Below are positions 7,040 to 43,755 of a stretch of 64,000 bases of DNA, one piece after another. The notes under the pieces are model-generated. The model did no database searches. It was not told the origin of the DNA and was given only the letters and a program-made list of their open reading frames with translations. The stretch is from the NCBI GenBank assembly GCA_025774845.1, contig JALGZP010000002.1:348-64347 (forward strand). The letters are read 5' to 3'. Origin of the DNA: a bacterium. Its GTDB lineage: Bacteria > Arandabacterota > Arandabacteria > Arandabacterales > Arandabacteraceae. Position numbers and translations under genes: made by a program. How positions within the stretch are numbered: the first letter of the stretch is position 1; each line of letters opens with the position of its first letter.

Positions 7040-9025
7040 TTACTTACGTCCCTCGATCAGAGAGTCAACAACTGAGGGATCCGCCAGGGTCGTTGTGTCA
7101 CCGACCTGGTCGATCTGACCGGCGGCGATCTTCCTCAGGATTCGACGCATGATCTTGCCCGACCGTGTCTTGGGCAGGCTGTCAGCGAACTGAATCTTAT
7201 CAGGCGTCGCTATGGGGCTTATGACTTTCCTGACGTGGCCCCGCAGTTCCTTCAGCAGCTCGTCGGTCTTATCATAACCCTGCTTCAATGTGACAAAGCA
7301 ATAGATCCCCTGACCCTTGATCTCATGGGGCATCGCGGCTACGGCCGCCTCCGCCACCGACTGGTGGTCGACCAGTGCGCTCTCAACCTCAGCCGTGCTG
7401 ATCCTGTGACCTGACATATTGATCACGTCATCCGTCCGGCCCATGAGCCAGTAGTACCCGTCCTCGTCCTTCTTGCAGGCATCACCTGTAAAGAACTTGC
7501 CCGGATACACCGAGAAGTAGACCTTCTTCACCAGCTCGTTCTTCGGATCGCCCTGGGTCATGCGGAACATACCCGGCCAGGCCCGCTCGATGATGAGGAT
7601 GCCGCTCTCATTGGTGTCGGCTTCCGAACCGTCTTCTCTCAGGACCTTGGGTACAATACCGAAGAAAGGCTTCGTCGCCGAACCCGGTTTGGTCGGGATG
7701 GCGCCCGGGAGCGGAGTGATAAGGATTCCGCCGGTCTCGGTCTGCCACCATGTATCGACGATCACGCAATTCTCGCGGCCGATCACCCGGTGGTACCACA
7801 TCCACGCCTCGGGGTTGATGGGCTCACCTACGGAACCGAGAATACGAAGGCTCGACAGGTCATGCTTGTCGGGCCACGTTTCGCCCAGTCTCATAAGAGC
7901 GCGAATAGCGGTCGGAGCCGTGTAGAACACGGTGACCTTGTAATCGGCGACGATCTTCCAGAACCTGTCGGGCTCGGGATAGGTGGGGACACCTTCAAAC
8001 ATCACCTGGGTTGCCCCGTTTGACATCGGGCCGTAAACGATATAGGAGTGACCGGTGATCCAGCCGATATCGGCCGTGCACCAGAAAATATCATCATCAT
8101 GCACATCAAAGATGTTCTTAAAGGTAATTGTTACATAGAGCAGGTAACCGGCGGTTGTGTGAACCACGCCCTTGGGCTTACCGGTGGTTCCGCTCGTGTA
8201 GAGAATGAACAGCGGATCTTCAGCATCCATCTGCTCCGGCTCGCAGGTATCCGTGATATCGTCAGCCGACATCTCATCCTGCCACCAGAAATCTCTCCCT
8301 GCCTTCATGTTCGGGCTGGTGTTGCCGCGATTGTACACAAAGACTCTCTCCACACAATCGCACTTGTCGGCGGCCTCATCTGCCTTGCTCTTAAGGTCCG
8401 AGACTTTGCCGGCATGTATGCTGACGTCGGAGGTGATGATCGCCTTCGAGGTGGAATCCAGAACACGGGTAGCCAGCGCCTCCGAGCTAAACGCCGAAAA
8501 GACCACGGAATGAACCGCACCGATCCGGGCGCACGCAAGAACCGCGATGGTCAGCTCGGGAATCATGGGCATATACAGCGTGACCCGGTCACCCTTGCCG
8601 ATACCATGCTTCCTCAGGACGTTTCCGAACCTGCAGACCTCGGTAGTGATCTCACCATAAGTGTAGGTCTTCCTCTCGTCGTCCTTCTCGCCCTGCCACA
8701 GAATGGCGATCTTGTCCTTCTTGCCGGCTTTGACATGTCTATCAAGACAGTTGTAGGCGACGTTGAGTTTCCCACCTTCGAACCACTTGGTGTAAGGCTC
8801 GGCGACTTCACCAATCTTGGAGAAGTCGTAATACATAACCTTGTCCCACTTCTTGAACCAGTCAACGTTCTCATCGGCCATCTTGGCCCAGAAGGTTTCA
8901 GGATCATCAATTGACTGGTTATAGAGTTTCTCGTACTCCTCCATACTCTTGATGTACGCGTTCTCGCTCAGCGCTTTCGGAGGGTAGAACACCTTTTCAT
9001 CTTTGATCGTGGATTCGTTCGACAT
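7040..9025 (-). CDS. acs: Acetyl-CoA synthetase (AMP-forming)
   Basis: Start taken at MSNESTIKD (strong GGGAGGAAGGA RBS). Motifs YTSGTTGKPKGV, WWQTETGG, YFTGD and SGHRISTAEVE, with PKTRSGKIMRR at the C-terminus. Confidence 0.95.
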   Translation of the reverse strand: MSNESTIKDEKVFYPPKALSENAYIKSMEEYEKLYNQSIDDPETFWAKMADENVDWFKKWDKVMYYDFSKIGEVAEPYTKWFEGGKLNVAYNCLDRHVKAGKKDKIAILWQGEKDDERKTYTYGEITTEVCRFGNVLRKHGIGKGDRVTLYMPMIPELTIAVLACARIGAVHSVVFSAFSSEALATRVLDSTSKAIITSDVSIHAGKVSDLKSKADEAADKCDCVERVFVYNRGNTSPNMKAGRDFWWQDEMSADDITDTCEPEQMDAEDPLFILYTSGTTGKPKGVVHTTAGYLLYVTITFKNIFDVHDDDIFWCTADIGWITGHSYIVYGPMSNGATQVMFEGVPTYPEPDRFWKIVADYKVTVFYTAPTAIRALMRLGETWPDKHDLSSLRILGSVGEPINPEAWMWYHRVIGRENCVIVDTWWQTETGGILITPLPGAIPTKPGSATKPFFGIVPKVLREDGSEADTNESGILIIERAWPGMFRMTQGDPKNELVKKVYFSVYPGKFFTGDACKKDEDGYYWLMGRTDDVINMSGHRISTAEVESALVDHQSVAEAAVAAMPHEIKGQGIYCFVTLKQGYDKTDELLKELRGHVRKVISPIATPDKIQFADSLPKTRSGKIMRRILRKIAAGQIDQVGDTTTLADPSVVDSLIEGRK

Positions 9026-9282: not shown

Positions 9283-12200
9283 CTATCTGAGGAGGATCAT
9301 TTTGCGGGTCACGGCCTCCCGGGCAGTGCTGACCCGGTAGAAGTAAAGACCGCTTGCGACCATGCGGCCTGAGGAGTCACGTCCATCCCATTCTACGGCG
9401 TGTCTTCCCGGCCGCATCGCACGATTGAGCAGGTTCCGGACAATCCTTCCGTCAACAGCGATCACATCTATATGGACCATACCCGGGCGCGGCAGATGGA
9501 ATCCGACTTCAGTACTACCGCTGAAGGGATTGGGGACGTTTTGAATGACGCTGAGTTTGCCCGATCCGAACTCCGGTGTAATCTCATTGGGTCTGTGGAC
9601 CAGCACATAGGTCCCGAGGGCATGGGTAAACGCACTTATCCTGTGCTCTTTGCTATGAAGATAGGAGCTGACCGGTGTTGTCCCGGTGTCTTCAACCCTG
9701 GCCAGGGAGAGATGCTCGGCATCATGGCAGTCCGTATCATATTCAATCGAAATCTCGATCCAGTCATCGATATCGAGGCCGCCCGGTGATATCTCGTAAG
9801 CAACCGGATCGGCTTCGCCGGGGTCACCTGATTCGAATATGACCACGTAGGCGTCCCGACCAATCGTTCCCGGCTCCAGCCGTACCGTGCACCTGCCGTC
9901 CGGGCTGACTGCAGTACCGCCGGAGCCGGCAAGGACAAGCAAGGAGGAGAAATCTCTTGCGAGACGGGCCCAGTTACCCCTCAGATCAGTACCTTCGATA
10001 CAGATTGACATCACCCCGCTCGAGCACAGGTCGTAGTCACCGCGATACACGTTCAGGGAAGGCTCGGTCACTTCAAGCTCGACGGTGACGTGATCAACAC
10101 TGCACCTGAGGCTTGCTTCCGTAATCACCTCGCTCGCCACCAGGAAAACGTCGAGGTGGTTTGTTATATAGGGATTCTGGAGAACGGAGATCGAGAACTC
10201 AGGCGGAGTCTGGTCATAGGGTGTGGCGGATGCCGTATCCGGTTCTGAATAGTTGGGCATTTCATCGTATGAGAATATCGAGTAGTAGTAGGTAGTTTCG
10301 TTGGCAAGGCCGGCGTGGACAAACGAATCCGCGCCCGCCGGCGACGCCGGGAATCTTCCGGAATACCCGTTCTCCACGGGTATCCCGTCGTCGGGTGAAG
10401 AGGGGCAGGTTGTCGTTGAATACTGTATGAGCACCCCCTCAAGGTCCGGATCATCTGGGAAGTACCACCTCAGAAACACCGCGGAATCACCTACAAACAC
10501 TCTGAATCCAGTGACCGGGTCGGGTGGAGTGGTATCGAACGGAGCGGCACTTGCCGTTACGGCACCCGAGTAGTTCGGTACCTCGTCGGCTGAGAACGCG
10601 GCGTAGTAGTAGGTCACGTTGTTTACAAGACCGGTGTGAGCGAAGCTGTCCGTGCTCGCCGGCGTATTGACGAACACTCCATCCGATCCGTTCTCCACGT
10701 CGGCCCCATCCGCCGGTGAGTCGGGATAACCCTTGGTCGAATATCTTATCACGGTCGAGCTGAAGTCGGTATCCTCCGGATTGGACCACCTGAGCATCGC
10801 CCTAGCGTCACCCGGAGTGGCTGTGAAAGCCTGGGGAGTAGCCGGCGCGACAACATCCGCCGGGACTGCACTCGCATTCTCTCCGACCGAGTAGTTGCCT
10901 TCGTCATCATAGGTAAACGCTGTATAGTAACAGGTTTCCCCGTTTGTCAAACCGTGATGCAGGAACGAATCCTGGGATGCCGGGGCATTCGCGAACATCC
11001 CTGACAGGCCGTTCTCCACCGGGCTCCCGCCGGTCGGCTCCACAGGGAAGTCGACTGTTGAATATCTGATGATCGTCCCTTCGAAATCGCTGTCGGGTGG
11101 ATTGGTCCAGCGGATATTCACCAGGGTATCACCGGCCTCAGCAGTCAGGCCCGTGACCTCACCGGGCGGTGTGTAATCTCCGGGTGATGCACTCGCATGG
11201 GCCGCGGGTGAATGGTTCGGAACCTCATCAAACGCGAACGCCGAGTAATAGTAAACGGTGCCGTCCGTAAGCCCGCTGTGGATGAAAGATGTATCGCTAC
11301 CTGGCCGTCCCGGGAAGATACCTCCGGCCCCGTTTTCCACGGGTAACCCGCCGGAGATGGTTGCCGGATAGGAACTTGTCGAGTAGCGTATGACCGATCC
11401 TTCAAGATCACTCGCTGTGGGATTGACCCAGGAGAGCGTGATCTGGCCGGGTGCGGGCTGGGTCAGGAAGGCGACGGGCGTACCGGGGGGCATCGTATCA
11501 GATGGAATACCTCTACCGGTAAGTCCCGTTTCACTCAGCAGTGTCCCATTGTAGGCATAAGCGGTGTAGTAGTAGGTCGTATCATTAAGAAGCCCCGTAT
11601 GCGTGAAACTCCCCTGACCGGAGGGTGTACCCATTACATATCCGGCGTGGTCGTTTTCAATGGGTAGACCTGCTTCTGCGCTCTCAGGGTAGGCCGATGT
11701 CGAATAGACTATGAGCGCGCCCTGAACCGGTGCCGGTGGCAATGACCACTCAAGCACATTGGATGTATCTCCCGCGCTCACAGTGAAGGTCGGCAGCGCC
11801 TCGGGTGTCTCTGTGGGACAGCCCTGACCGATCGCGCCTATACGACCGCAGCCGTATCCGGTAAGACACGGCGAGTTATCAGATAGAGAGTAGTTCCCGC
11901 CCACACGATCGCAGAACAGGGGATCCTCCGAGAAGTTGCCGCCGCCATCGGTACCGCAGACCGTGTCGCTCTGGGTATTCGAGTAGAGGTCACAACAGGA
12001 GATGACGGGATTCGATCCCTGCAAGCACGTGATGGCGTCACCACCCTGGGTGTTTGAGACTATGGTCCGGGTGAGCTCACCCCCACTCCCGCCCGCGTAG
12101 TACACACCCGCGGCCGCCGTGTTGCCTTCGATCGTACATTCGGTGATCCGCGGTGACGAGGCGTCACTGTTTATACCCACACCCATCAACGCGTTTCCGG

Positions 12201-13959
12201 CCACCACACAGGCTTCTATACGCGGGGTCGAATTCGTGATCTTGATCACACCCGACGCGAGCGGATTTTCAAGACCGGTAAGAGTGAATCCCCTAAAACG
12301 TGCCCCGCTCCCGACGAGGTCGAACCAGACTATGTGCTCATGAGAACCGTCCGTGCCGGCATCGATGATCGTGCTTTCGGGACCCGCTTCACTCATGATG
12401 ACGATCGCCTGATCGATCAGGATCGAGCCTTCGGGGTAGGTACCGGGAGCCACGATTACGGTGTCCCCGGCGTCCGCAAGACCGACGGCCTCTCCTATGG
12501 TCGAAACATCGGACGGCACGTGCCAGGTGTGGGTTGACGAAAGCTCGGTTCCCCTGAGCCGTATGCAGACATCGGAGTCTTCGCAGCCTTCGATGGTCCG
12601 GACATCCTGCCACTCGCTCCCGTCGGCACTCACAAAACACTTGCCGGGTGCCACTATGCCGTTACCGTCGAGGGCGACCGGATAGGGAAAAGATGAATTG
12701 GTGAACCGGACCACCGCGTAGACAGCGTCTCCCGGTTCCACGGCAACGGGTGCGGAAAGCTCGACCGAGTGATAGCCGTATTCGGAAAACGCCTGATCGA
12801 GTTCGCTCGAAAGCAGTGTTGAGAGCGTGGTCCCGTCGAAGTCATCGTAGAGATACACATCGATATCGGTGGTGATATCGGTTGCCCAGAATTCGACACG
12901 TTCCAGCCGTGTGTCCTCCTCCGCGGCGAACTTGCACATCCCCCATGCCGTGGTCCCTTCGAAGCCCACCTGGACTTCACCTTGATACCCGCCCTCGTCG
13001 TAATAGAGCAGCCGACCGTCGGGATCATAATCCTGCCAACCGGTCATCGAGGACGACCAGCAGCCTATCATCGCAGTGCCGTATGCCATCGTGAAGAAAC
13101 CGCGCTCGGTGCCGTAGCCGCAGCGCCCTCCCCAGTCATTGCCCCAGCTGTTCTTGGCTATCCAGCCACCCTGACCACCCTCCTGCTCCAGTGAATCGTC
13201 CCAGCCTAACAGCAGGACCGCATGGTTGGGCTCTTGCCTTACGGGGTTATACAGTGTGTATGAACCGTCATAGGCTTTCATCTCGAAATACCAGGAGCTG
13301 CCCGACCCGGCATATAGCGATGTGTAAAGCGGTCCATAGGCCATTATGTAGGATTTCAGCAGATCGGGTTCCGGGATACTCTCCGCCGATACCATGCTCC
13401 AATCCAGAAGTGTGGTGACGTAGCTGCAGTTGCTCTTGCACGCCACGTTGGCGGGCACGTAGGGGTCACAGGTCTCAAGTACGGCGCCCTTCTGCGACAG
13501 GAAGTTTGCCATCCTGTGGTAGTTGCCTCCCGAGCAGCTACTCCTGTACCATTCGCATTCCTTGATGTTGTTCTCAGAGAAGTCATACCGTGGCTCCCCA
13601 TCGACCAGCAATTTGGCCTCGAGATTGGCAAGCGCGGCGAACGCATAGCATGAGCCGCAGGCCCCTTGATTCTTGACCGAGGTAATCCTTCCCTGCTCCC
13701 GCCAATCAAATCGTGAGGGCAGAGACACCGCGCGCTGAACCGGACGGACGGGTGTTATATGCAGCATGCTCCGCGCCGGGGGAATGAAACCCGCATCTTC
13801 TAAGACCGGATGGCTGGCGAGCGGTGCGTGCACCAGCGCCCGTGCCCTGGGTTTCCCGGCGGCGCCGGCAAGGGGGATCCTGACCGTACTTCCGACTACA
13901 CACAGGAGGAGAAATGCTGCCGGCAGGGATTTCACCCTGGTTGTACGTATACCGATCAT
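9283..13959 (-). CDS. Exported multidomain papain-family (C1) cysteine protease with right-handed beta-helix, five Fn3-like repeats and Por/FlgD-Ig-type C-terminal domain
   Basis: 1558 aa. Catalytic triad motifs are NQGACGSCYAF (Cys104), NHAVLLLGWDD and NSWGNDWG. The beta-helix region has GNTAAAG and NSPCL-type turns (aa ~480-715). C-terminus is NPFSGSTEVGFHLP...WDGRDSSGRMVASGLYFYRV. Confidence 0.85.
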   Translation of the reverse strand: MIGIRTTRVKSLPAAFLLLCVVGSTVRIPLAGAAGKPRARALVHAPLASHPVLEDAGFIPPARSMLHITPVRPVQRAVSLPSRFDWREQGRITSVKNQGACGSCYAFAALANLEAKLLVDGEPRYDFSENNIKECEWYRSSCSGGNYHRMANFLSQKGAVLETCDPYVPANVACKSNCSYVTTLLDWSMVSAESIPEPDLLKSYIMAYGPLYTSLYAGSGSSWYFEMKAYDGSYTLYNPVRQEPNHAVLLLGWDDSLEQEGGQGGWIAKNSWGNDWGGRCGYGTERGFFTMAYGTAMIGCWSSSMTGWQDYDPDGRLLYYDEGGYQGEVQVGFEGTTAWGMCKFAAEEDTRLERVEFWATDITTDIDVYLYDDFDGTTLSTLLSSELDQAFSEYGYHSVELSAPVAVEPGDAVYAVVRFTNSSFPYPVALDGNGIVAPGKCFVSADGSEWQDVRTIEGCEDSDVCIRLRGTELSSTHTWHVPSDVSTIGEAVGLADAGDTVIVAPGTYPEGSILIDQAIVIMSEAGPESTIIDAGTDGSHEHIVWFDLVGSGARFRGFTLTGLENPLASGVIKITNSTPRIEACVVAGNALMGVGINSDASSPRITECTIEGNTAAAGVYYAGGSGGELTRTIVSNTQGGDAITCLQGSNPVISCCDLYSNTQSDTVCGTDGGGNFSEDPLFCDRVGGNYSLSDNSPCLTGYGCGRIGAIGQGCPTETPEALPTFTVSAGDTSNVLEWSLPPAPVQGALIVYSTSAYPESAEAGLPIENDHAGYVMGTPSGQGSFTHTGLLNDTTYYYTAYAYNGTLLSETGLTGRGIPSDTMPPGTPVAFLTQPAPGQITLSWVNPTASDLEGSVIRYSTSSYPATISGGLPVENGAGGIFPGRPGSDTSFIHSGLTDGTVYYYSAFAFDEVPNHSPAAHASASPGDYTPPGEVTGLTAEAGDTLVNIRWTNPPDSDFEGTIIRYSTVDFPVEPTGGSPVENGLSGMFANAPASQDSFLHHGLTNGETCYYTAFTYDDEGNYSVGENASAVPADVVAPATPQAFTATPGDARAMLRWSNPEDTDFSSTVIRYSTKGYPDSPADGADVENGSDGVFVNTPASTDSFAHTGLVNNVTYYYAAFSADEVPNYSGAVTASAAPFDTTPPDPVTGFRVFVGDSAVFLRWYFPDDPDLEGVLIQYSTTTCPSSPDDGIPVENGYSGRFPASPAGADSFVHAGLANETTYYYSIFSYDEMPNYSEPDTASATPYDQTPPEFSISVLQNPYITNHLDVFLVASEVITEASLRCSVDHVTVELEVTEPSLNVYRGDYDLCSSGVMSICIEGTDLRGNWARLARDFSSLLVLAGSGGTAVSPDGRCTVRLEPGTIGRDAYVVIFESGDPGEADPVAYEISPGGLDIDDWIEISIEYDTDCHDAEHLSLARVEDTGTTPVSSYLHSKEHRISAFTHALGTYVLVHRPNEITPEFGSGKLSVIQNVPNPFSGSTEVGFHLPRPGMVHIDVIAVDGRIVRNLLNRAMRPGRHAVEWDGRDSSGRMVASGLYFYRVSTAREAVTRKMILLR
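10210..11811 (-). repeat. Five tandem ~100-aa protein repeats (first one divergent) inside the protease gene
   Basis: Recurring PP..V..F....GD....L.W.NP.D.D.EG..IRYST..YP.....G.PVENG..G.F...P...DSF.H.GL...T.YYY.AF..DE.PNYS, spanning aa ~717-1250. Confidence 0.75.
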
Positions 13960-14056: not shown

Positions 14057-16192
14057 CTATTCTAGCAGGATGATCTTGGTGGCCTCCGAGTGCGGTCTGC
14101 CCTCGCCGGTGACGGCGCTCAGCCGGAGGAAGTAGACACCGCTCGCCGCCCTGTTACCGGTTCCGGTCATTCCGTCCCAGGCCGCTTCATATCGGCCCGG
14201 TCCATCGTTGCGTTTAAGCAGGGTGCGTACGACTCTACCTCTCAGGTCAACCACGCTCAGTTCCACCCTCGCCCGAACGGGCAGGCTGTAACGGATGGTT
14301 GTACCTGAAGCAAACGGGTTTGGCCGGACCCGCTCGAGCCACACCCCACTCCGGGGTCGATCCGGTACGTCATCCACCGACGCAGTCCCCAGGAGCTCGT
14401 GTATGGTATCGATCGCGAGTTTCGGTTTGTGGCCGAAGTAGGGCAGTACCACAATCCCGTCCCGGTCGATTATGAAATTACGGCCGAACGGTAACCCGGT
14501 GTTGGGCTGGGTATAGTGAATCGAGGCGACAGCGGTCGAATCGTGCATAACGGGACCTCTGAGGTAATAGTTATCCCAGAGGATAAACATCCAGGCCAGG
14601 GTCTCTTTGTAGTAACCGCCTGCATTGAGGAGGACTGTAACGACTTCGGGGTTATCTTCGAATTCCTTAACTATCGTGTTCTGCATGTCCGCGACCGCGG
14701 GCAGGCAGGCCGGTCACCACGAGCCGTAAACAGCCATCCAGATGATCTTTCCCAGATGGTCGGAGAGCGTGAAGGTTCCCTCCTCGTATTCACCGGTCTC
14801 ATGGTTCTTCGTGAAGATGGGAAGTGTGAAGTCCACAGCCGGTTCGCCGGGATCGAGATGGTCGGTGCTGGCGAACACCTGGATCGAGAGAGGGCTTTCG
14901 TCGGGGTCGTTGGAGTAGAAGTAGACTATGCCGTAGCCTTCTTCCGGCGTCCCGTCGTGGATGATATTAAAGGTCGCCGTATCCCCTGGGGCGATCGTTC
15001 CACCGGTGTACGAAAGGCTGACAGCCGGTACCGTCACAGTTACGCTGTCGATTATGAGATCACCTGCACCGAAGTTGGAGAGGGTCACGAGCTTCGTGCC
15101 CCCACTGGGTGTAAATCTTATCCTGGAAGTACTCGGTGTTATGTCGGCCTGTGTGCTCATCGAAGCCGGGATCAGCCGGTAAACGTCCATCGAGTTCCAG
15201 GTTGAGCAGAGAACCAGGTTACCATCCGAACCCACTCCGCCGAAACTTCGGAATACAGCATTGGCATTCCTTCGTGCGCCCTTCTCACGTGCGACCAGGG
15301 TTAGGTCACCGTTCGGTGCAACGCTGTATACGCGAACCCCGGAAAAGTCGGTTACGGCGAGATAGTCTTCTACCCACTCCATGTCCTCGGCGGCAGCGTC
15401 GACCGGGTATACCGTGCGGTCAAGGGGATTACCGTTCCGGTAGTGAATCACACCGGCTCCACCCGCCGCAAGATAGACATGACCGTTACGCGAGACCACT
15501 CCCTCAGCCGTCCCCAACGCTGTGGAAAGGTCATCGCCATCCAGGATTACGGGGTTTCCCACATCGGACACGTCGACCACCTTAAGACCACCTGCACCAT
15601 CGGCAACGTATGCCGTGTCGCCTGTGACAACGATATCGAAGGCATCAACGAAGCCTGAGTCCAGCGAGCCGGTCAGAGCAGGATTCAGGGGGTCGGTGAG
15701 ATCATAGACACGTATGCCATGGCTGTGGGCTGCAACGTACAGGTAATCTCCATCGACACACATCTTCTCGAAGTAGACCTTGCGCTGCTTCACTGTCTTC
15801 CGCCGGTAGAGAGTGTTGCCCACACGCTCGATCACTGCGAAGCCGGTTGTAAGCGATACATCGGGGTGGTGAAGATTGGCGTAGATGAAATTGCCGTCCT
15901 TGAGATAGATGTCCCGCGAGTTGATATTCATCATACGTGATATGTAGCTGTTGGTTCCCTCGACGGGGAGAGCAGTGAGATCCACCACGGCAAGAGCGAG
16001 GTTACTCGATACAACTGCCAGCGAGTCCCCAAGCGGGATTACATCGAGGAGCTCATCCGGTTCGCCGGGCTGCCGCAGGTAGCGGCCTGTGTACTCCAGG
16101 ACCATGTCCTGTGAAAAACCCTGCGATGCGAGAACAACAAGAAGAGCGAAGAAGAGCCAGTGCCTGCGAAAACCATCCTTGATTAGATCCAT
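14057..16192 (-). CDS. Exported LVIVD-repeat beta-propeller / Ig-like / TlpA-type redoxin protein with in-frame UGA (candidate Sec, W-U-P-A-C) and Por/FlgD-Ig C-terminal domain
   Basis: Track ORFs 14714..16282 and 14057..14686 share one frame and are separated only by TGA at 14714..14716. Read-through gives DFTLP...FTLSDHLGKIIWMAVYGSW-U-PACLPAVADMQ. Start taken at MDLIKDGFRRHWLFFALLVVLASQGFS. LVIVD-like repeats include GIRVYDLTDPLNP and GLKVVDVSDVGNP. Confidence 0.75.
14681..14704 (-). promoter_or_regulatory. Candidate bacterial SECIS hairpin for UGA 14714
   Basis: mRNA folds as CUGC-CCGC-GGUC-GCGG-(ACAU)-GCAG, starting 10 nt after the UGA. Apical loop is GGUC with G at +18/+19. Confidence 0.5.
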
Positions 16193-16360
16193 CCGTCCAC
16201 CCCACTTTTCCTGAACCTCCACCCAATCATATACAGATGGATAGGAGCACATCCTGGCTATTCTGATGTAGGATGCACCCAACAGTTGCAGTCTAATCCG
16301 GACTTCTCATGGTGTGAGGGGCAGTAACCCCGGGCACTCCGCAGGAGAAAGCTGGAACAG

Positions 16361-16492
16361 CTATGCAGTTGGCTCGGAGACCTTCGCGGCCTTTGCCTTT
16401 GCCTTGATCTTCTTCTTTTTGCGAGGACGGGTGTTACCCGAGCTCTTCTTCCAGATCTTACCCTTCCGTGTCCTTCGATCTCCTCTTCCCAT
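16361..16492 (-). CDS. 30S ribosomal protein THX (bTHX), 43 aa, below the track length cut-off
   Basis: Hand translation gives MGRGDRRTRKGKIWKKSSGNTRPRKKKKIKAKAKAAKVSEPTA. This closely parallels the Thermus Thx sequence as I remember it ([25 protein letters not shown]). GGGAGG lies 8 nt upstream of the ATG. Overlaps the 3' end of the upstream gene by 35 nt in another frame. Confidence 0.7.
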   Translation of the reverse strand: MGRGDRRTRKGKIWKKSSGNTRPRKKKKIKAKAKAAKVSEPTA

Positions 16493-17750
16493 CTTTGATA
16501 CCTCCCATATAGATACAGTCCTCTATTTCGCCATACCCGCGGACGATGTCATCGGCAAAAGCGATGCAGGTCGGAGCACCGCAGCATCCGCAGTCGATCC
16601 TGGGCAGCGCATTGTATATTGTATCCTTCTGTTTCTTCTTTTCAATCGCTGTGGCCAGGTCGCTGGCAAGGGGCCGAAGCGGCCTTGGGGCCAGCTTCTT
16701 TTCAAGGGAATAATGTCCCTTGTTATACTTCTCTATAACTTCATCTCTGTCAACCGGAACCTTACCACCATACTTCCTGAGCAGGTGCAGAGTGCTGCTG
16801 CGTGCGACGTACATGTTCTCAACGACAAGCGATCCACCGATGCAACCACCCAGACACGAGGAGAGTTCTACGAATTCCACATCTCTGAGTTTGGAGTTCT
16901 CGATATCGTCAAGGATCTTTGTAACATCACTCATACCGGAAACGGCGATCGAATGCTCCGCACCTATCAGCCTGGTCATCTCCCCCAACATGGACCAGCC
17001 CGCACCGAACTTGAAGTCCCGGGCAACATCCTCGTCAATCTCTTCATTCTCGAGGTCGGCGACCGCTGAGAAGAGAGGAGCAAAGACATCGACGATCGAC
17101 ACGGCACCGTCTATCCAGGATTTCGCCTTTTCGGCAGGCTGTTTGATTGAGACGATCTTTGCGGGGCAGGTCGTGATATAGACTACACCGATCCCCCCGA
17201 CATCCACACCAAGCTCACGTGCCAGATTCTGCTTAACATCTCTGGCAGCTATCTCCCTGGGAACATCTACAGGCACAACCCTGCCGGTCAGATCCGGGTA
17301 CTTCACCTGAATCAACCTCACGACCGCAGGGCAGAACGAGGAGAGAACGGGGAGCCTGCCCCTGTGTTGGGCAATGGACTCATCGATCGCAATGCTCACC
17401 TCTTGACAAGCGAGGGATAGATCACACACATAGTCGAATCCGATTCGCTTGAGCCCCATTATCACTTTTCTCGGATCGACCTCGGGTCTGAACTGCGAAT
17501 AGAGCACCGGTGACGGTAGTGCTACCTTGTACTTGAAATCCAGAGACTGCGCAAAGGGATCCGTAAGCGGCACGATCGCACCCGAGGGACAGACATTTAT
17601 ACACTCACCGCAATCCACGCACAGCTCTTCAATCACCCTCGCCTTGCCGTCACGCATCCTTATCGCAGCTGTGGGACAGCTGCGCATACACTTCATTCTC
17701 CCGTCGCATCTTTCGTCAACGAACTCTATGGGGTGATAGTATTTTCCCAT
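16458..17750 (-). CDS. [FeFe]-hydrogenase large-subunit homologue of the putative sensory type (no PAS domain)
   Basis: 430 aa. N-terminal 2x[4Fe-4S] region (CMRSCP, CVDCGECINVCP). H-cluster-like motifs are SSFCPAV (L1, proton-relay Cys replaced by Phe), TTCPAK (L2) and SSCLGGCIGG (L3, Ser where catalytic enzymes have Met). C-terminal CGCCGAPTC-x16-C. Confidence 0.8.
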   Translation of the reverse strand: MGKYYHPIEFVDERCDGRMKCMRSCPTAAIRMRDGKARVIEELCVDCGECINVCPSGAIVPLTDPFAQSLDFKYKVALPSPVLYSQFRPEVDPRKVIMGLKRIGFDYVCDLSLACQEVSIAIDESIAQHRGRLPVLSSFCPAVVRLIQVKYPDLTGRVVPVDVPREIAARDVKQNLARELGVDVGGIGVVYITTCPAKIVSIKQPAEKAKSWIDGAVSIVDVFAPLFSAVADLENEEIDEDVARDFKFGAGWSMLGEMTRLIGAEHSIAVSGMSDVTKILDDIENSKLRDVEFVELSSCLGGCIGGSLVVENMYVARSSTLHLLRKYGGKVPVDRDEVIEKYNKGHYSLEKKLAPRPLRPLASDLATAIEKKKQKDTIYNALPRIDCGCCGAPTCIAFADDIVRGYGEIEDCIYMGGIKDGKRRSKDTEG

Positions 17751-17752
17751 CG

Positions 17753-18184
17753 CTAATCCGTGTGAATCGTTATGGCCAGTTTGGTGCCTTTCCCCACCTC
17801 GGATTCGATCTCGAAGTCATCTGCATTACGCTTAATGTTCGGAAGCCCCATTCCCGCCCCGAAACCCATCTCCCTCATTTCAGCGGTCGCGGTCGAATAG
17901 CCCTCCTCCATCGCCCGTTCGATACACTCGATGCCCGGGCCTTCATCCTCTAGCTCGATTCGTATGCTTGTCGGGGTGGCCGACAATCTCACCACCGCCC
18001 TCTTCGCATACATGACGATATTCATCTCGGCTTCATAGGATGCAATGGCCGCCCGTCTGATCTTCACCGGATCGAAACCGATTTCCTTGAGAATCGATTT
18101 TATCTCCGTAGAGACCGTACCCGCGTTGGTGAAGTCCTTGCCAAGGACTGAAAATTCTTGGAAGAACAGAACTTCATCGCTCAT
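17753..18184 (-). CDS. RsbW/SpoIIAB-like anti-sigma-type ATPase (HATPase_c) protein
   Basis: 143 aa. EDEGPGI...GFGAGMGLPNIKRNAD...GKGTKLAITI are GHKL ATPase G-boxes. ATGA overlap with the upstream gene. Confidence 0.75.
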   Translation of the reverse strand: MSDEVLFFQEFSVLGKDFTNAGTVSTEIKSILKEIGFDPVKIRRAAIASYEAEMNIVMYAKRAVVRLSATPTSIRIELEDEGPGIECIERAMEEGYSTATAEMREMGFGAGMGLPNIKRNADDFEIESEVGKGTKLAITIHTD

Positions 18185-18540
18185 TTTCCACCAATCTGGC
18201 TTCCGGATTTCATGCCCTTTTCATAGAGGCGGCCGCATGCTTCGAACATCGAAAGCGGACATGACAACAGCGGAATACCCTTCTGTCCGGCCAGCTTCAC
18301 CGCCTCCTCGTCGGGCGTCTTCCCGCGTACATAGACTATCGCTCGCACCTCTGCTACATGAGAGGTTATGACGGATTGGACGTTCCTTAAGCCCGTGAGA
18401 AGAATCCCGCCAGGTGCGGCGAACGCAAGCACATCGCTCATGAGATCGGCGCCGCACACTTCCTCGTAGTCGTGATCGAGCATATCTTCTCCCGTAATCA
18501 CCTCACACTCAATTACCTGGCATATTTCCTTTAGTGTCAA
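18181..18540 (-). CDS. DRTGG-domain-like small protein
   Basis: Track ORF is 18181..18606. I place the start at TTG 18540..18538, which sits 5 nt after GCAGGAGG and just past the upstream stop. Product (M)TLKEICQVIECEVITGED...GGILLTGL...VYVRGK resembles the small DRTGG proteins of NuoEF/[FeFe]-hydrogenase operons. Confidence 0.6.
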   Translation of the reverse strand: MTLKEICQVIECEVITGEDMLDHDYEEVCGADLMSDVLAFAAPGGILLTGLRNVQSVITSHVAEVRAIVYVRGKTPDEEAVKLAGQKGIPLLSCPLSMFEACGRLYEKGMKSGSQIGGK

Positions 18541-20877: not shown

Positions 20878-22566
20878 CTAACTCAGGTACTCCTTCATTG
20901 AATCGGCTGCTATGTGGCCCGCGCGTATTGCCTCAATCACCGTGGCAGGCCCGGTCACACCATCCCCCCCCGCATATATGCCGGGACGGTTGGTGGCCAT
21001 AGTCCTTTCGTCAACCACAAACGAGTTCCAACGCGATATCTCGAAGCCATGCTCGTCCGGGAGGAACGTGATATCCGGCTGCTGGCTGATGGCCGGAATG
21101 ATGAGATCGGCCTCGACGGTGAATTCCGAACCCTCGACAGGAATCGGCCGTCTTCGGCCGCTTGCATCGAGTTTGCCCAGTCTCATCTTGGTGCATTCCA
21201 TGCCGGCTACCTTTCCGCCTTTACCCAGGATCTTGACCGGTGCGGCAAGGTAGTGAATCTTGACGCCCTCCTCCTCCGCTCCCTCGACCTCCCAGTCGTT
21301 TGCAGGCATCTCCCTTCGCGATCTCCTGTAGAGTATGGTGACCTCCTCACAACCCAACCTGAGCGCCGTCCTTGCCGAATCGATCGCCGAGTTTCCGCCG
21401 CCTATGACTATCACCTTGTTACCCGGTCTTGTCTTGTCTCCGAGATTCACATCCCGGAGGAACTTTATACAGTCAAGAAAACCTTCGTAGTCGTCTTCCC
21501 CGGGCACCCTGAGTTTAAGACCTTCATATGCACCCACGCCCAGGAAGATTCCCTTAAAGCCCTGCTTGAAGAGGTCGTCGACCGTGAACTCCTTCGTGAG
21601 AGGGGTGTTGAGTTTTATCTCGACACCAAGATCTTCGATGTATGCAACATCACTCAAGAGGATGTCCCTGGGCAGCCTGTATTCGGGAATTCCGAGGTGC
21701 ATCATGCCGCCGGGCACGGGAGCGGCCTCAAAAACGGTTACCCGATAACCTTCAAGCGCGAGATCGTGTGCAACCGTAAGACCCGCGGGGCCGGCCCCCA
21801 CCACTGCCACTTTGGTCTTAAGGTCTTTCTTGGGCTTCGGCGGTACGAACTTGCCGGCCTTTCGCTGTGCGACCTCATAATCGCTTACAAAACGCTTGAG
21901 AGCATCAATCGCAATCGCCTCGTCCTGACGCCCCCTGTTACAGACCGTCTCACACGGATGAGGACAGATCCGGCCGCAAACTGCTGGCAGCGGATTCCTG
22001 TCACGAATAACTCTTATTGCTTCTTCGTACCGGCCACCGGCGATCAGTCCCACGTACCTTCTTATGTCTATGTGAACGGGGCATCGCTCCTGGCAGGCGG
22101 GTGTTTCCTTCTCGATATTGTACTCGCCCCCGAAAGTACGCGGCCCCGCAAAGTCTATCGCGGTCCTGAGCATCAAACCCTCGTTATAGCTATCATATGG
22201 CTTTATCGGACAGACAAGCAGGCACTCGGCGCAGGCATTACAGGCCTCGGTTACCCTGCCCGGCTGGTGAGTTAGACTGACTTTGATCCTGTCGTCTTTC
22301 TTACGCACGCTCCCGAGGGTCGAGTTCGTGAGTACCCTGATCCCCGGGTGAGCAAGAACCTCATTCACCAACTTGGATGAAAGACAGACCGATGGGAAGC
22401 CCTCGGGAACCACCCGTTCCTGCTTGAGCAAGAGCCCGCCCAGGAACGGCGACTCCTCAACAAGCGCAACCCTGGCGCCCGATCCCGCAACCTCGAGTGC
22501 TGCCGTAAGCCCGGTGATACCGCCACCGACAACAACTACTTCCCTCGGGGAAGACTTATCACTCAT
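20878..22566 (-). CDS. GltD/NfnB-like NAD(P)H oxidoreductase subunit with an N-terminal HdrA-like FAD fragment
   Basis: Start taken at MSDKSS (ATGAGTGA overlap with the mvhD stop). VVVGGGITG...ACNACAECLLVCP is followed by CGRICPHPCETVCNRG and VAVVGAGPAGL...PGGMMHLGIPEYRLPRD...VIGGGNSAIDSAR, typical of GltD/NfnB. Confidence 0.8.
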   Translation of the reverse strand: MSDKSSPREVVVVGGGITGLTAALEVAGSGARVALVEESPFLGGLLLKQERVVPEGFPSVCLSSKLVNEVLAHPGIRVLTNSTLGSVRKKDDRIKVSLTHQPGRVTEACNACAECLLVCPIKPYDSYNEGLMLRTAIDFAGPRTFGGEYNIEKETPACQERCPVHIDIRRYVGLIAGGRYEEAIRVIRDRNPLPAVCGRICPHPCETVCNRGRQDEAIAIDALKRFVSDYEVAQRKAGKFVPPKPKKDLKTKVAVVGAGPAGLTVAHDLALEGYRVTVFEAAPVPGGMMHLGIPEYRLPRDILLSDVAYIEDLGVEIKLNTPLTKEFTVDDLFKQGFKGIFLGVGAYEGLKLRVPGEDDYEGFLDCIKFLRDVNLGDKTRPGNKVIVIGGGNSAIDSARTALRLGCEEVTILYRRSRREMPANDWEVEGAEEEGVKIHYLAAPVKILGKGGKVAGMECTKMRLGKLDASGRRRPIPVEGSEFTVEADLIIPAISQQPDITFLPDEHGFEISRWNSFVVDERTMATNRPGIYAGGDGVTGPATVIEAIRAGHIAADSMKEYLS

Positions 22567-23347
22567 ATGCAGTCTCACCGTTACCTGAAAGTTCCCACAT
22601 CGGGGTGTTTCCCACGACGGAGTGTATCTCAGCAAAACCCATCTTCTTTAGATCCGCCATCTGTCTTACGAGAATCTTCGGTGCCGTGTCCATCTTGGTG
22701 GCCAGCTCTTTTACCGAATGGGGTTTACCCTTGAGCCGTTCCAGTATCTCTCTCAGTCTGAATTCATCCATCGCTATCTCGTCAAAGAGCCTACCTATCT
22801 CATGGGCCGTGAACTTCTCCCCGTAGAGGTTACCCTTCTCGGTGAATTCCACGATCTTGCCCGTGACCCATCTGATCTTACGGCCGCCGAGCGCCTTCCC
22901 CGCAGCCTGAAGCTTGACCTCAAGATCGTTCTTATCGATGCCCTCGGGCTTACCCAGGGGACCCAGCTCGGTGATATCCTTCTGGAACTCACCTGCGAAC
23001 TCGACGAACTTGTTGCCCTCAGCGCTCGACATCATACGCATCCGGAGTCTGGCAGGATCTATACCCGCCATCCTGAGGACCCGCTTGGTGATTTCCATCT
23101 TGCCCTCGGCATGGAGGTTACCCGAGGTATAATGGCACTCTCCACGCTTGCAGGCGCCCACGAACACTCCGTCCGCACCCGCCAGCAATGACTCGATGAC
23201 CATCACAGGATCCACCCTTCCCGAACACATCACTCTCACAACCCTGATGTCGGGTGCATATTGAAACCTCGCTACCCCGGCGAGGTCAGCCGCACTGTAT
23301 GCTCACCAGTTACAGCAGAAAGCTATGATGTGCGGTTTGAAACTCAT
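22559..23347 (-). CDS. mvhD: MvhD-like iron-sulfur subunit with in-frame UGA (candidate Sec in CCNW-U)
   Basis: Track ORF starts at 23239. Extending upstream in frame gives [47 protein letters not shown], with TGA at 23303..23305. The ATG at 23347 lies 2 nt after the upstream stop. Without the extension the conserved N-terminal Cys block of MvhD is missing. Confidence 0.8.
23267..23285 (-). promoter_or_regulatory. Candidate bacterial SECIS hairpin for UGA 23303
   Basis: mRNA folds as CCUCGC-CGGGGUA-GCGAGG. The 6-bp stem starts 18 nt after the UGA and loop Gs lie at +25 to +28. Confidence 0.6.
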
Positions 23348-43738: not shown

Positions 43739-43755
43739 AGTTACGATCACAGGCA

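What the first reader, a model, noticed from the sequence alone, without database searches (positions are those of the whole stretch)
14057..16192. Exported selenoprotein candidate: LVIVD propeller fused to a TlpA-like redoxin with a W-U-P-A-C active site and a sorting CTD
ORFs 14714..16282 and 14057..14686 share a frame and are separated only by TGA at 14714..14716. The junction reads AVDFTLP...FTLSDHLGKIIWMAVYGSW-U-PACLPAVADMQNTIVKEF. This is the layout of TlpA/AhpC-type redoxins, with the UGA exactly where the first Cys of WCxxC sits. The hairpin CUGC-CCGC-GGUC-GCGG-(ACAU)-GCAG (14681..14704) follows. The signal peptide is on the upstream piece and the Por/FlgD-Ig C-terminal domain is on the downstream piece. 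Only the fused 711-aa product is a coherent exported protein. I know of few characterised Sec-pathway-exported bacterial selenoproteins, and I do not recognise this propeller-redoxin-CTD architecture.
Basis: partly seen in the sequence, partly recalled or inferred. Interest (0 to 1): 0.8.

Follow-up and report, generated by a model that had tools for sequence, protein, structure and literature searches.

The report
Exported propeller–redoxin selenoprotein, split by annotation
The two adjacent reading frames are one gene for a secreted 711-residue protein (beta-propeller, Ig-like domain, TlpA-like redoxin, sorting tail) whose active-site cysteine is replaced by selenocysteine. The redoxin type is a known selenoprotein kind, but this widespread fusion appears undescribed and is annotated as two hypothetical proteins wherever I looked.

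Summary

**The gene.** On the minus strand, 16192..14057 is one frame interrupted only by TGA at 14716..14714, reading ...VYGSW-U-PACLPAVADMQ....

**Comparative support.**
- Among 44 related species-representative genomes, 32 carry TGA at this exact codon and 12 carry TGT/TGC.
- 98 of the 120 best database hits end at this W.
- Contiguous full-length orthologues read W-C-P-A-C.

**SECIS.** A hairpin (CCGC-GGUC-GCGG on a CUGC/GCAG lower stem, loop 17 nt after UGA) meets the published bacterial SECIS constraints. It is fixed at synonymous sites in 27 of 28 close Sec forms, changes compensatorily in the 28th, and is absent from Cys forms.

**Sec use by the organism.** The window holds two further selenoprotein genes of known families, MvhD-like and HdrA-like. 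The HdrA hairpin has the same GGUC loop.

**Structure.** An AlphaFold model of a Cys orthologue (pLDDT 91.6) shows signal helix, propeller, Ig domain, thioredoxin fold spanning the junction, and C-terminal sandwich.

The lower stem it drew is not the conserved one. UxxC redoxin selenoproteins ("Prx-like 3" / "Redoxin family protein") have been catalogued since 2008.

**What is new.** The propeller fusion, the predominance of Sec forms, and the T9SS-type tail. The biochemical function is inferred, not shown.

The parts
14057..16192 (-). Complete selenoprotein gene: 711 codons including UGA-493, plus the TAG stop at 14059..14057
   Evidence: Searches give the translation. One search shows contiguous Cys orthologues of 636-708 aa. 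One search shows the same layout in 44 species.
16112..16192 (-). Signal peptide, about residues 1-27: MDLIKDGFRRHWLFFALLVVLASQGFS. It has a basic n-region and an 11-residue hydrophobic core, with no lipobox Cys.
   Evidence: Read directly from the sequence. Homologues have equivalent hydrophobic N-termini. The model of orthologue P0007 shows a detached N-terminal helix. No signal-peptide predictor was available.
15173..16111 (-). LVIVD-repeat beta-propeller, about residues 28-340
   Evidence: Pfam LVIVD has E 2.2e-11, above its cut-off. The AlphaFold model of the orthologue is an all-beta propeller at residues 40-354. Foldseek matches 7/8-bladed WD40-like propellers, E down to 4e-13. Boundaries were transferred from the orthologue and are approximate.
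14870..15160 (-). Ig-like beta-sandwich linker domain, about residues 345-441, carrying the conserved SNDPDExPLPIQV motif
   Evidence: There are weak HYDIN/VesB-like Ig and choice-of-anchor-D hits. The orthologue model shows a beta-sandwich at 363-456. D, P, D and E are nearly invariant in alignment A1.
14378..14845 (-). TlpA/ResA-like thioredoxin-fold (redoxin) domain, about residues 450-605, with active site W492-U493-P-A-C496
   Evidence: Redoxin PF08534 has E 9e-4, below its cut-off. ResA NF002854 has E 9.5e-6. The best solved relatives are extracytoplasmic Trx-family proteins, DsbE and ResA. In orthologue P0007, WCPAC at 507-511 lies between strand 498-504 and helix 512-525.
14714..14716 (-). 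UGA codon 493, decoded as selenocysteine
   Evidence: TGA is at the same codon in 32 of 44 related species, and TGT/TGC in the other 12. 98 of the 120 top hits end at the preceding W.
14681..14708 (-). Bacterial SECIS hairpin. The lower stem is CUGC (14708..14705) pairing with GCAG (14684..14681). U14703-A14686 and G14702-C14687 also pair. The upper stem is CCGC (14700..14697) pairing with GCGG (14692..14689). The apical loop is GGUC (14696..14693).
   Evidence: The loop lies 17 nt after UGA and the MFE is -15.3 kcal/mol. Codons P-A-V-A are fixed as CCC GCG GTC GCG in 27 of 28 Sec forms. L022 has the compensatory form CUGC-AGUU-GCAG. Cys forms lack the hairpin.
14060..14341 (-). C-terminal sorting domain: a FlgD-Ig / T9SS type-A-like beta-sandwich, about residues 618-711, ending KIILLE
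   Evidence: FlgD_ig scores 32.6 bits against a cut-off of 27. TIGR04183 scores 24.3 against 23. The orthologue model shows a beta-sandwich at 633-707. Three other large proteins in the window have the same tail pattern.

Best explanation
Window 16192..14057 (minus strand) is one gene for a 711-residue exported selenoprotein.

**Recoding.** Translation does not stop at UGA-493. A hairpin begins 5 nt downstream, with its GGUC apical loop 17 nt after the UGA. It acts as a bacterial SECIS that recruits SelB with Sec-tRNA(Sec), so selenocysteine is inserted as the first residue of a W-U-P-A-C redox motif.

**Product.** The domain order is signal peptide, LVIVD beta-propeller, Ig-like domain, TlpA/ResA-like thioredoxin-fold domain, then a T9SS-type (FlgD-Ig-like) C-terminal sorting domain.

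**Fate and function.**
- After Sec-translocon export, the tail probably directs the protein to the cell surface or the medium.
- The U-x-x-C centre probably cycles between a selenolate/thiol state and a selenenylsulfide state. It would act as a thiol-disulfide oxidoreductase on a substrate held by the propeller.

**Status of each step.**
- Shown here: one gene; the Sec/Cys pairing; the conserved SECIS; Sec use by this organism; the domain order.
- Inferred: export route, final location, reaction catalysed, substrate and electron donor.
For: 1. **Conserved TGA.** It occurs at the same codon in 32 of 44 related species-representative genomes. These include Eisenbacteria, Thermodesulfobacteriota, Thermoanaerobaculia, Fibrobacteraceae, Planctomycetota, Bacteroidia, Cloacimonadota, Gemmatimonadota, Calditrichota, Marinimicrobia and Fidelibacterota. 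In each, in-frame PAC.PAVADMQNT... follows the TGA.
2. **Cys at the same column.** TGT/TGC sits there in the 12 others, and W-C-P-A-C in 14 contiguous proteins of 636-708 aa with the same domain order.
3. **Truncated annotations.** 98 of 120 best hits stop exactly at the preceding W. About 27 clusters of ~205-aa 'hypothetical proteins' start at the Met 9 codons later.
4. **SECIS.**
   - All four published constraints are met (PMC13188914, read): a 4-nt loop and a 4-bp upper stem; G in the first loop positions; 17 nt of spacing; MFE -15.3 kcal/mol.
   - Codons +5..+8 use one codon each in 27 of 28 Sec forms. Equally conserved Gly, Val and Pro codons elsewhere use three to four different codons, and Cys forms use mixed codons.
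   - 87.8% of cells are paired, against 23-49% for slid controls. Four pairs change on both sides.
5. **The organism decodes Sec.**
   - An MvhD/FlpD-like gene reads CNW-U-AYSAADLAG at TGA 23305..23303. PF02662 has E 3e-47 across the site.
   - An HdrA-like gene reads [14 protein letters not shown] at TGA 26165..26163.
   - The HdrA hairpin is GGAUGCC-GGUC-GGCAUCC, with the same loop.
6. **TGA is otherwise a normal stop** in this window.
7. **Structure.** The AlphaFold model of Cys orthologue P0007 has pLDDT 91.6 and pTM 0.84. Its thioredoxin fold has strands on both sides of the CxxC.
8. **Nearest solved relatives.** For the redoxin domain these are extracytoplasmic Trx-family proteins, DsbE and ResA.
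Against: - No selA, selB, selD or tRNA-Sec lies in the 64 kb. ARAGORN found no tRNA.
- The hairpin alone is not unusually stable for this G+C-rich sequence: z is -1.4 to -0.3.
- Covariation is thin because the hairpin hardly varies in the close family.
- Redoxin PF08534 and Por_Secre_tail PF18962 are below Pfam cut-offs for this sequence.
- A surface-exposed TlpA-like reductase would lack the usual DsbD/CcdA electron supply.
- No conserved neighbour gene such as ccdA was found.
- No experimental or proteomic evidence exists for selenium incorporation.
- The n-region contains RR (FRRHWLF), so Tat export is not strictly excluded.
Confidence: 0.85

Rival explanations
1. There are two independent genes, or a pseudogene or sequencing error. 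A 492-residue propeller protein would end at a genuine TGA stop. A separate ~209-residue protein would start at ATG 14686.
For: Every public annotation I saw calls two ORFs. TGA is a normal stop elsewhere in the window.
Against: - The stop falls inside a thioredoxin fold, exactly at the catalytic Cys column.
- The 8 codons between TGA and ATG are conserved as protein in 32 species.
- Cys orthologues are contiguous.
- The same 'error' cannot recur at one codon in at least 10 phyla.
- The downstream piece would lack a signal peptide yet carry a secretion tail.
Confidence: 0.02
2. The UGA is read through or reassigned to a standard amino acid (Trp, Cys or Gly) rather than selenocysteine.
For: Selenium incorporation was not measured. 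No Sec machinery genes are visible in the window.
Against: - The host phyla use the standard code, and the window uses TGA as an ordinary stop.
- The column is Cys, not Trp or Gly, in the non-TGA orthologues.
- A SECIS-type hairpin is maintained at synonymous sites only in TGA forms.
- Two classic selenoprotein genes, MvhD and HdrA, in the same window have TGA at their known Sec positions.
Confidence: 0.03
3. The gene model is the same, but the redox domain is a selenol peroxidase (peroxiredoxin-like) that detoxifies peroxides outside the cytoplasm, rather than a disulfide reductase or isomerase.
For: - Orthologues carry precomputed AhpC-TSA PF00578 hits.
- The related GOS group was named 'Prx-like 3'.
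- Sec greatly favours peroxide reduction; this rests on general knowledge of GPx and Prx chemistry.
- A peroxidase could work with small environmental reductants.
Against: - The motif is W-U-P-A-C of the TlpA/ResA/DsbE type, with no Thr/Ser at position -3 (G-S-W-U).
- The best NCBIfam and PDB matches are ResA, DsbE and Trx-family lipoproteins, not peroxiredoxins.
Confidence: 0.2
4. The protein stays in the periplasm, and the C-terminal sandwich is a binding or structural Ig domain rather than a T9SS signal. It would be kept reduced by DsbD/CcdA like other TlpA-family proteins.
For: - PF18962 is below its cut-off here, and the stronger hit is the generic FlgD_ig fold.
- Several orthologues lack any tail, or carry dockerin-like or other C-termini.
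- A periplasmic location solves the electron-donor problem.
Against: - TIGR04183 is just above its cut-off.
- Bacteroidales orthologues have clear PF18962 tails.
- At least three other large secreted-type proteins in the window end with the same NP.F...GxY....K(I/M)ILLR pattern, as expected of a shared sorting signal.
Confidence: 0.3

Closest known systems
'Prx-like 3' selenoproteins of the GOS survey (pfam08534-weak, UxxC; PMC2398784), listed as 'Redoxin family protein, PF08534, UxxC' in the 2026 review PMC13188914
   Same: - Both are thioredoxin-fold redoxins with Sec as the first residue of (W)-U-x-x-C.
- Both match PF08534 only weakly.
- Both have a SECIS directly downstream.
- Members have hydrophobic N-termini.
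- GOS read 1093018267852 is 36-41% identical (E about 1e-29) to the redoxin domains of the Calditrichota, Marinimicrobia and Fidelibacterota propeller fusions L039/L041-43. It is 26% identical (E 2e-10) to the window protein.
   Different: - The catalogued members that start within a read are small stand-alone proteins. The only fusion reported is to a C-terminal dockerin/thrombospondin-like 'Unknown_3' domain.
- No propeller or Ig domain is mentioned.
- Cys homologues vastly outnumber Sec forms there (68 against 2,608). Here Sec forms predominate.
TlpA / ResA / CcmG(DsbE) / Etrx extracytoplasmic thiol-disulfide reductases (cd02966)
   Same: - Both have an exported thioredoxin fold with W-C-x-x-C at the N-terminus of helix 1.
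- These are the best NCBIfam hit (ResA) and the best solved-structure hits: 4evm, 4hqs, 3gl3, 4nmu.
- A conserved G-L-P-F-G-R-x-F-I-I-D stretch lies where the cis-Pro loop is expected.
   Different: - Those proteins use Cys and are single-domain, membrane-anchored or lipoproteins.
- They are reduced by DsbD/CcdA and have defined clients such as cytochrome c, CuA and MsrAB.
- Here the nucleophile is Sec and the domain sits behind a propeller and an Ig domain.
- No ccdA/dsbD neighbour is conserved.
LVIVD-repeat / 'choice-of-anchor' surface proteins (PF08309; TIGR04312, NF012200)
   Same: - Both have an LVIVD propeller followed by an Ig-like module.
- Both have a C-terminus that varies between lineages: T9SS tail, dockerin-like, Cys-rich, FN3-like or none.
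   Different: - Matches to the choice-of-anchor models are far below their cut-offs.
- Known members carry no redox domain and no Sec.
E. coli fdhF-type bacterial SECIS
   Same: - Both are hairpins inside the coding region just after UGA.
[quoted passage not shown] The fdhF loop sequence is from my memory.
- Both satisfy the published bSECIS model.
   Different: - The upper stem is only 4 bp before an internal C·A mismatch.
- There is no evident bulged U.
- No Rfam family matches.
NHLRC2-type proteins (thioredoxin-like domain plus NHL beta-propeller plus beta-stranded domain)
   Same: Both combine a Trx-like redox domain with a beta-propeller and a C-terminal beta domain in one polypeptide. 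This comparison is from memory and is analogy only.
   Different: The domain order is the opposite, the propeller family is different, and there is no Sec. Homology was not tested here.

Membership tests
Bacterial selenoprotein gene | In-frame UGA conserved at the same codon in orthologues | tested here: met
   TGA at this codon in 32 of 44 related species. 98 of 120 database hits end at the preceding W.
Bacterial selenoprotein gene | Cys-containing homologues with Cys aligned to the UGA | tested here: met
   12 species have TGT/TGC. 14 contiguous proteins have W-C-P-A-C.
Bacterial selenoprotein gene | bSECIS per the published model: 3-9 nt loop, upper stem of at least 4 bp, G in the first two loop positions, 16-37 nt from UGA to the loop, MFE at or below -7.5 kcal/mol (PMC13188914) | tested here: met
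   Loop GGUC, stem CCGC/GCGG, 17 nt spacing, MFE -15.3 kcal/mol. Conserved at synonymous sites only in Sec forms. 87.8% of cells paired, against at most 49% when slid.
Bacterial selenoprotein gene | Genome encodes selA, selB, selC (tRNA-Sec) and selD | tested here: inconclusive
   None was seen in the 64 kb, and ARAGORN found no tRNA. Not all ORFs were scanned. Indirect support comes from two further selenoprotein genes of known families in the window.
Bacterial selenoprotein gene | Selenium actually incorporated | not testable with these tools
   This needs 75Se labelling or MS of the peptide IIWMAVYGSWUPACLPAVADMQNTIVK.
TlpA/ResA/DsbE-like redoxin (PF08534 / cd02966) | Score above the Pfam gathering threshold | tested here: not met
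   PF08534 scores 19.5 bits against a cut-off of 26.6 for the window protein. Orthologues do carry precomputed PF08534/PF00578 hits. ResA NF002854 has E 9.5e-6 but is far below its subfamily cut-off.
TlpA/ResA/DsbE-like redoxin (PF08534 / cd02966) | Thioredoxin fold with CxxC at the N-terminus of helix 1 | tested here: met
   Shown on the Cys orthologue P0007. WCPAC at 507-511 lies between strand 498-504 and helix 512-525, and the model has pLDDT 91.6.
TlpA/ResA/DsbE-like redoxin (PF08534 / cd02966) | Extracytoplasmic location, and reduction by DsbD/CcdA | not tested
   A signal peptide is read from the sequence only. No ccdA/dsbD neighbour is conserved.
Peroxiredoxin (AhpC/TSA) | PxxxT/SxxC peroxidatic motif | tested here: not met
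   The sequence reads Y-G-S-W-U-P-A-C, with Gly at position -3. The nearest solved relatives are not peroxiredoxins.
GOS 'Prx-like 3' / 'Redoxin family protein' selenoproteins | UxxC with a weak PF08534 match, and sequence similarity to catalogued members | tested here: inconclusive
   The motif and the weak PF08534 match are met. Identity to one catalogued read is 26%, E 2e-10. That read is 36-41% identical to distant propeller fusions. The family has no defined boundary, and its representative HEU0032618.1 could not be retrieved.
T9SS type A C-terminal sorting domain | TIGR04183 / PF18962 above cut-off | tested here: inconclusive
   TIGR04183 scores 24.3 against 23, which is met. PF18962 scores 15.4 against 27, which is not met. 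FlgD_ig scores 32.6 against 27, which is met. Bacteroidales orthologues have PF18962.
T9SS type A C-terminal sorting domain | T9SS machinery present in the genome | not tested
   Only 64 kb is available. A shared tail pattern on three other large proteins in the window is suggestive.
LVIVD-repeat beta-propeller (PF08309) | Pfam threshold and propeller fold | tested here: met
   43.3 bits against a cut-off of 20.2. The orthologue model is a propeller that matches 7/8-bladed propellers in the PDB.

The most novel reading that the evidence does not exclude
This would be the first recognised family of bacterial selenoproteins that are cargo of the type IX secretion system and work on the cell surface or outside the cell. 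A selenol/thiol centre would be presented by a propeller to an extracellular substrate in anoxic sediments, for example polysulfides, oxidised surface proteins or metalloids.

Because the UGA precedes the sorting tail, selenium supply would also act as a switch. The full-length product would be sorted and redox-active. The truncated product would be a 492-residue propeller without a tail that stays in the periplasm.
Probability: 0.2. Interest if true: 0.65.

Novelty: new variant of a known kind. Interest (0 to 1): 0.45.

Why it matters
**Annotation.** About a hundred 90%-identity protein clusters, and 32 of 44 related species-representative genomes, carry this gene as two 'hypothetical proteins'. 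Recognising it as one selenoprotein repairs the annotation in many poorly known phyla: Eisenbacteria, Cloacimonadota, Marinimicrobia, Planctomycetota, Gemmatimonadota and others.

**Selenoprotein catalogue.** It adds a large multidomain exported member to a catalogue dominated by small cytoplasmic redox proteins. The family is also unusual in that Sec forms outnumber Cys forms, which suggests selenium gives a real catalytic advantage in this setting.

**Worked examples.** The forced P-A-V-A-D peptide shows how a SECIS constrains protein sequence. The three Sec genes within 12 kb make the contig a useful test case for selenoprotein gene finders.

**Limits.** Thioredoxin-fold UxxC selenoproteins are the commonest kind known, and the function here is only inferred.

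Tried and rejected
- **Rfam.** Neither the gathering threshold over the whole window nor E up to 10 around the site gave a SECIS family match.
- **ARAGORN.** It found no tRNA or tRNA-Sec in the window.
- **Exact-match contig look-up for the window's own N-terminal product.** It is not on record.
- **Structure prediction of the fused U->C window protein.** I modelled the Cys orthologue P0007 instead.
- **Foldseek against the PDB.** It returned only generic WD40-like propellers and gave no functional lead for the propeller.
- **Whole-library HMMER search with the N-terminal piece.** Giant multi-LVIVD-repeat proteins dominated it, so it gave no usable family count.
- **Conserved gene neighbourhood.** All-against-all clustering of neighbours in 45 loci, plus three Pfam-annotated contigs, found no family-wide partner. 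There was no ccdA/dsbD, no sel genes and no T9SS genes.
- **A conserved partner Cys in the propeller.** None was found; the best column is Cys in 30 of 56 sequences.
I rejected it because those 5' bases vary freely among orthologues.
- **Single-sequence folding statistics.** They do not distinguish the hairpin from shuffles.
- **Literature.** Searches linking Sec with LVIVD or type IX secretion found nothing relevant. Haft & Tolstoy 2025 (PMC12013261) was not available. The supplements of BSepDB and the 2026 review were not held. I therefore could not check whether their 'Redoxin family protein' entry already includes this fusion.
Full report
**1. What is in the sequence**

- On the minus strand a single reading frame runs from ATG 16192 (MDLIKDGFRRHWLFFALLVVLASQGFSQD...) to TAG 14059..14057.
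- It is interrupted only by TGA at 14716..14714, inside ...LGKIIWMAVYGSW-*-PACLPAVADMQNTIVKEF....
- The ORF lister reports the downstream part as 14057..14686 only because it starts at the first Met. The frame is open from 14713.
- With the stop replaced by Cys, the 711-residue product hits the following:

| Family | Result | Against cut-off |
|---|---|---|
| LVIVD | E 2.2e-11 | above |
| FlgD_ig | E 8e-8 | above |
| TIGR04183 T9SS sorting domain | 24.3 bits vs 23 | above |
| Redoxin PF08534 | E 9e-4 | below |
| ResA | E 9.5e-6 | below |
| HYDIN-type Ig | weak | below |

**2. Is the TGA a selenocysteine codon?**

- *Database hits.* A search with the fused protein returned 226 relatives. Of the 120 best, 98 are 430-610 residues long and end exactly at the W preceding the TGA. 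Eight more end at what looks like the same junction, after a residue other than W.
- *Cys orthologues.* Fourteen hits are contiguous proteins of 636-708 residues with redoxin domains. Nine end in a T9SS-type tail, and the other five lack one or carry a dockerin-like end. All read W-C-P-A-C, with the first Cys aligned to the window's TGA.
- *Species genomes.* A scan of species-representative genomes gave 44 true relatives. I read the codon after the W in each.
  - 32 have TGA followed in frame by P-A/V-C-x-P-A-V-A-D-M-Q-N-T....
  - 12 have TGT or TGC: Bacteroidales, Kapabacteria, Spirochaetaceae and some Phycisphaerae.
  - The TGA forms come from at least ten phyla.
- *Annotation of the downstream half.* It is annotated as a separate ~205-residue hypothetical protein starting at the Met of ADMQ in about 27 clusters. 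The same is true in three Pfam-annotated contigs.
- *What this excludes.* A read error, a pseudogene and a genuine two-gene arrangement are all excluded by these data. The Cys/TGA pairing is the classical signature of a selenoprotein.
- *Genetic code.* TGA is used as an ordinary stop by other genes in the window. The genetic code is therefore not reassigned.

**3. The SECIS**

I aligned the 33 TGA forms from the TGA to +39 (A2).

*Conserved structure* (column n corresponds to window coordinate 14717-n):
- Lower stem: CUGC 14708..14705 (the Ala-Cys codons) pairs with GCAG 14684..14681.
- Middle pair: G14702-C14687. U14703-A14686 also pairs in the window's own fold.
- Upper stem: CCGC 14700..14697 pairs with GCGG 14692..14689.
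- Apical loop: GGUC 14696..14693.

*Fit to the published model.* The loop starts 17 nt after the UGA, and the MFE of the 38-nt element is -15.3 kcal/mol. All four constraints of the published bacterial SECIS model are met (PMC13188914).

*Strongest evidence: synonymous sites.*
- The four codons P-A-V-A that form the upper stem and loop are CCC GCG GTC GCG in 27 of 28 close Sec forms.
- Equally conserved four-fold degenerate residues nearby (Gly -12, Pro +22, Val +24) use three to four different codons.
- The 12 Cys forms use mixed codons and even different residues (P-S-A-E-A-D).
- The one exception, L022 (Cloacimonadota), has CUGC-AGUU-GCAG. This is a compensatory C-G to U-A change, and its lower stem also changes C-G to U-A.

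*Pair counts.* 87.8% of cells are paired, against 23-49% when the 3' partners are slid. Four pairs change on both sides.

*Caveats.*
- Variation is sparse.
- The single-sequence z-score is only -1.4.
- RNAalifold on the ungapped alignment recovers only the upper stem.
- The distant Marinimicrobia-type members use a slightly shifted UCCGG-AGUUG-UCGGA hairpin.

**4. The organism uses selenocysteine**

No tRNA and no sel genes were seen in the window. However, two further genes have in-frame TGA at known Sec positions of known selenoprotein families.
- An MvhD/FlpD-like protein reads MSFKPHIIAFCCNW-U-AYSAADLAG, with TGA at 23305..23303. PF02662 has E 3.4e-47 across the site.
- An HdrA-like protein reads ...[21 protein letters not shown], with TGA at 26165..26163.
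- Both have downstream hairpins. The HdrA hairpin is GGAUGCC-GGUC-GGCAUCC, with the same GGUC tetraloop as the target.

**5. Architecture**

The fused window sequence could not be submitted for modelling. I therefore modelled the Cys orthologue P0007 (41% identity, 96% coverage) with an 89-sequence alignment. The result has pLDDT 91.6 and pTM 0.84.

| P0007 residues | Element |
|---|---|
| 17-31 | Detached N-terminal helix (signal peptide) |
| 40-354 | All-beta propeller |
| 363-456 | Beta-sandwich |
| 471-620 | Alpha/beta thioredoxin fold |
| 633-707 | C-terminal beta-sandwich |

- WCPAC (507-511) lies between strand 498-504 and helix 512-525. The TGA therefore cuts the fold in two, and only the fused product is a sensible protein.
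- Foldseek finds generic 7/8-bladed propellers only.
- By sequence, the nearest solved relatives of the redoxin domain are extracytoplasmic thioredoxin-family proteins (4evm, 4hqs), DsbE and ResA.
- The C-terminus varies among orthologues: T9SS-type tail, dockerin-like, Cys-rich, extra domains or none. This recalls 'choice-of-anchor' surface proteins.
- Three other large proteins in the window end in the same NP.F...GxY...K(I/M)ILLR tail. One is the 1558-residue papain-family peptidase immediately downstream.

**6. How it most likely works**

*Shown:*
- One gene.
- UGA-493 paired with Cys in orthologues.
- A conserved SECIS.
- Sec usage by the organism.
- The domain order.

*Inferred:*
- SelB-dependent insertion of Sec as the attacking residue of W-U-P-A-C.
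- Export by the Sec translocon. The signal peptide is read from the sequence. The RR in its n-region is shared by the closest homologue P0002 but is not a consistent feature of the other N-termini.
- Sorting by the C-terminal domain.
- Thiol-disulfide exchange through a selenenylsulfide intermediate, on a substrate bound by the propeller.

*Open points:*
- The motif and the closest relatives favour a TlpA/ResA-type oxidoreductase over a peroxiredoxin, because there is no Thr/Ser at position -3. A selenol peroxidase role is not excluded.
- The electron donor is unknown. No ccdA/dsbD or any other partner is conserved nearby.
- No Cys is conserved in the propeller.

**7. Comparison with what is known**

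- Thioredoxin-fold UxxC proteins are the most common class of bacterial selenoprotein.
- The GOS survey (PMC2398784) listed 'Prx-like 3' (pfam08534 with E > 0.001, UxxC, 68 Sec reads against 2,608 Cys homologues).
- The 2026 review PMC13188914 lists it as 'Redoxin family protein, PF08534, UxxC'.
- Its supplementary sequences include small stand-alone proteins with signal-like N-termini and W-U-x-x-C.
- One read is 36-41% identical to the redoxin domains of the distant propeller fusions and 26% identical to the window's. It may itself be a fragment of such a fusion.
- The only fusion described there is to a C-terminal dockerin-like domain.
- I found no paper connecting Sec with LVIVD repeats, propellers or type IX secretion.
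- No NCBIfam model is specific for this family.
- NCBI and JGI records call the pieces hypothetical proteins.
- I could not retrieve the review's representative accession or the BSepDB tables. Prior cataloguing under the generic name therefore cannot be excluded.

**8. Verdict**

- The finding is a new variant of a known kind: a Sec-containing TlpA-like redoxin embedded in a large exported propeller-Ig-redoxin-tail protein.
- It is widespread, Sec-dominant and annotated as two ORFs in every record I examined.
- Interest is moderate (0.45). It is useful for annotation and for selenoproteome biology, and intriguing if it is truly surface-exposed. It is not surprising in kind, and its function is only inferred.

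Noticed in passing
window 22559..23347 (-), TGA at 23303..23305: A second selenoprotein gene of a known family, MvhD/FlpD-like. It reads MSFKPHIIAFCCNW-U-AYSAADLAGVARFQY..., a CxxU motif. PF02662 has E 3.4e-47 across the TGA. The hairpin CCUCGC-CGGGGUA-GCGAGG lies downstream. As raw ORFs it looks like a protein lacking its first 15 residues.
   Followed up: partly
window 25035..26375 (-), TGA at 26163..26165: A third selenoprotein gene, HdrA-like. It reads ...[32 protein letters not shown].... Its SECIS-like hairpin GGAUGCC-GGUC-GGCAUCC has the same GGUC loop as the target gene. It sits in an Hdr/Mvh/NuoEF-like electron-bifurcation cluster spanning roughly 18.5-33.6 kb.
   Followed up: partly
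window 9283..13959 (-); also 37186..39069 (-) and 43741..46797 (+): Large secreted-type proteins carry the same C-terminal tail pattern as the target (NP.F/A ... GxY ... K(I/M)ILLR). The one immediately downstream is a 1558-residue papain-family (C1) peptidase with lectin-like, beta-helix and repeated FN3-like modules. This suggests a shared sorting system and possibly co-transcription with the selenoprotein gene, which lies 97 bp away.
   Followed up: partly
L015 about 7423..7437 and L031 about 7470..7484: Two Sec-form orthologues lack the resolving Cys while keeping the SECIS intact. A Planctomycetota member reads U-P-A-S, and a Phycisphaerales member reads U-P-Y-T. They are either UxxS/UxxT variants with different chemistry or decaying genes.
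   Followed up: no
window 16157..16171 (-), residues 8-12: The signal peptide n-region contains F-R-R-H-W-L-F, a loose twin-arginine-like motif. The closest homologue P0002 shares it (LRRFWSVL). It is not a consistent feature of the other N-termini, though a few contain RR elsewhere in the n-region. Tat versus Sec export was not resolved.
   Followed up: no
L004, L010, L019, L028, L029, L032, L042 (regions after the redoxin domain): The C-terminal module after the redoxin domain is swapped between lineages. Variants include a T9SS-type tail, dockerin-like repeats in Phycisphaerae, Cys-rich segments, long extra beta domains, or nothing. This resembles 'choice-of-anchor' behaviour.
   Followed up: partly
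window 16458..18220 (-): Directly upstream of the target lies an [FeFe]-hydrogenase-like protein: Fe_hyd_lg_C with E 6.6e-27, plus 4Fe-4S and 'Putative Fe-S cluster' domains. A small protein follows it. By eye, its sequence resembles an anti-sigma-factor / histidine-kinase-like ATPase. Together they may form a sensory hydrogenase module heading the Hdr/Mvh cluster.
   Followed up: no
Family-wide: Sec forms outnumber Cys forms in this fusion family: 32 against 12 species, and about 106 against 14 clusters among the top hits. In most UxxC redoxin families the ratio is the reverse. Both forms occur within Phycisphaerae, which implies repeated Sec/Cys switching. The count is biased by using a Sec-form query.
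   Followed up: partly
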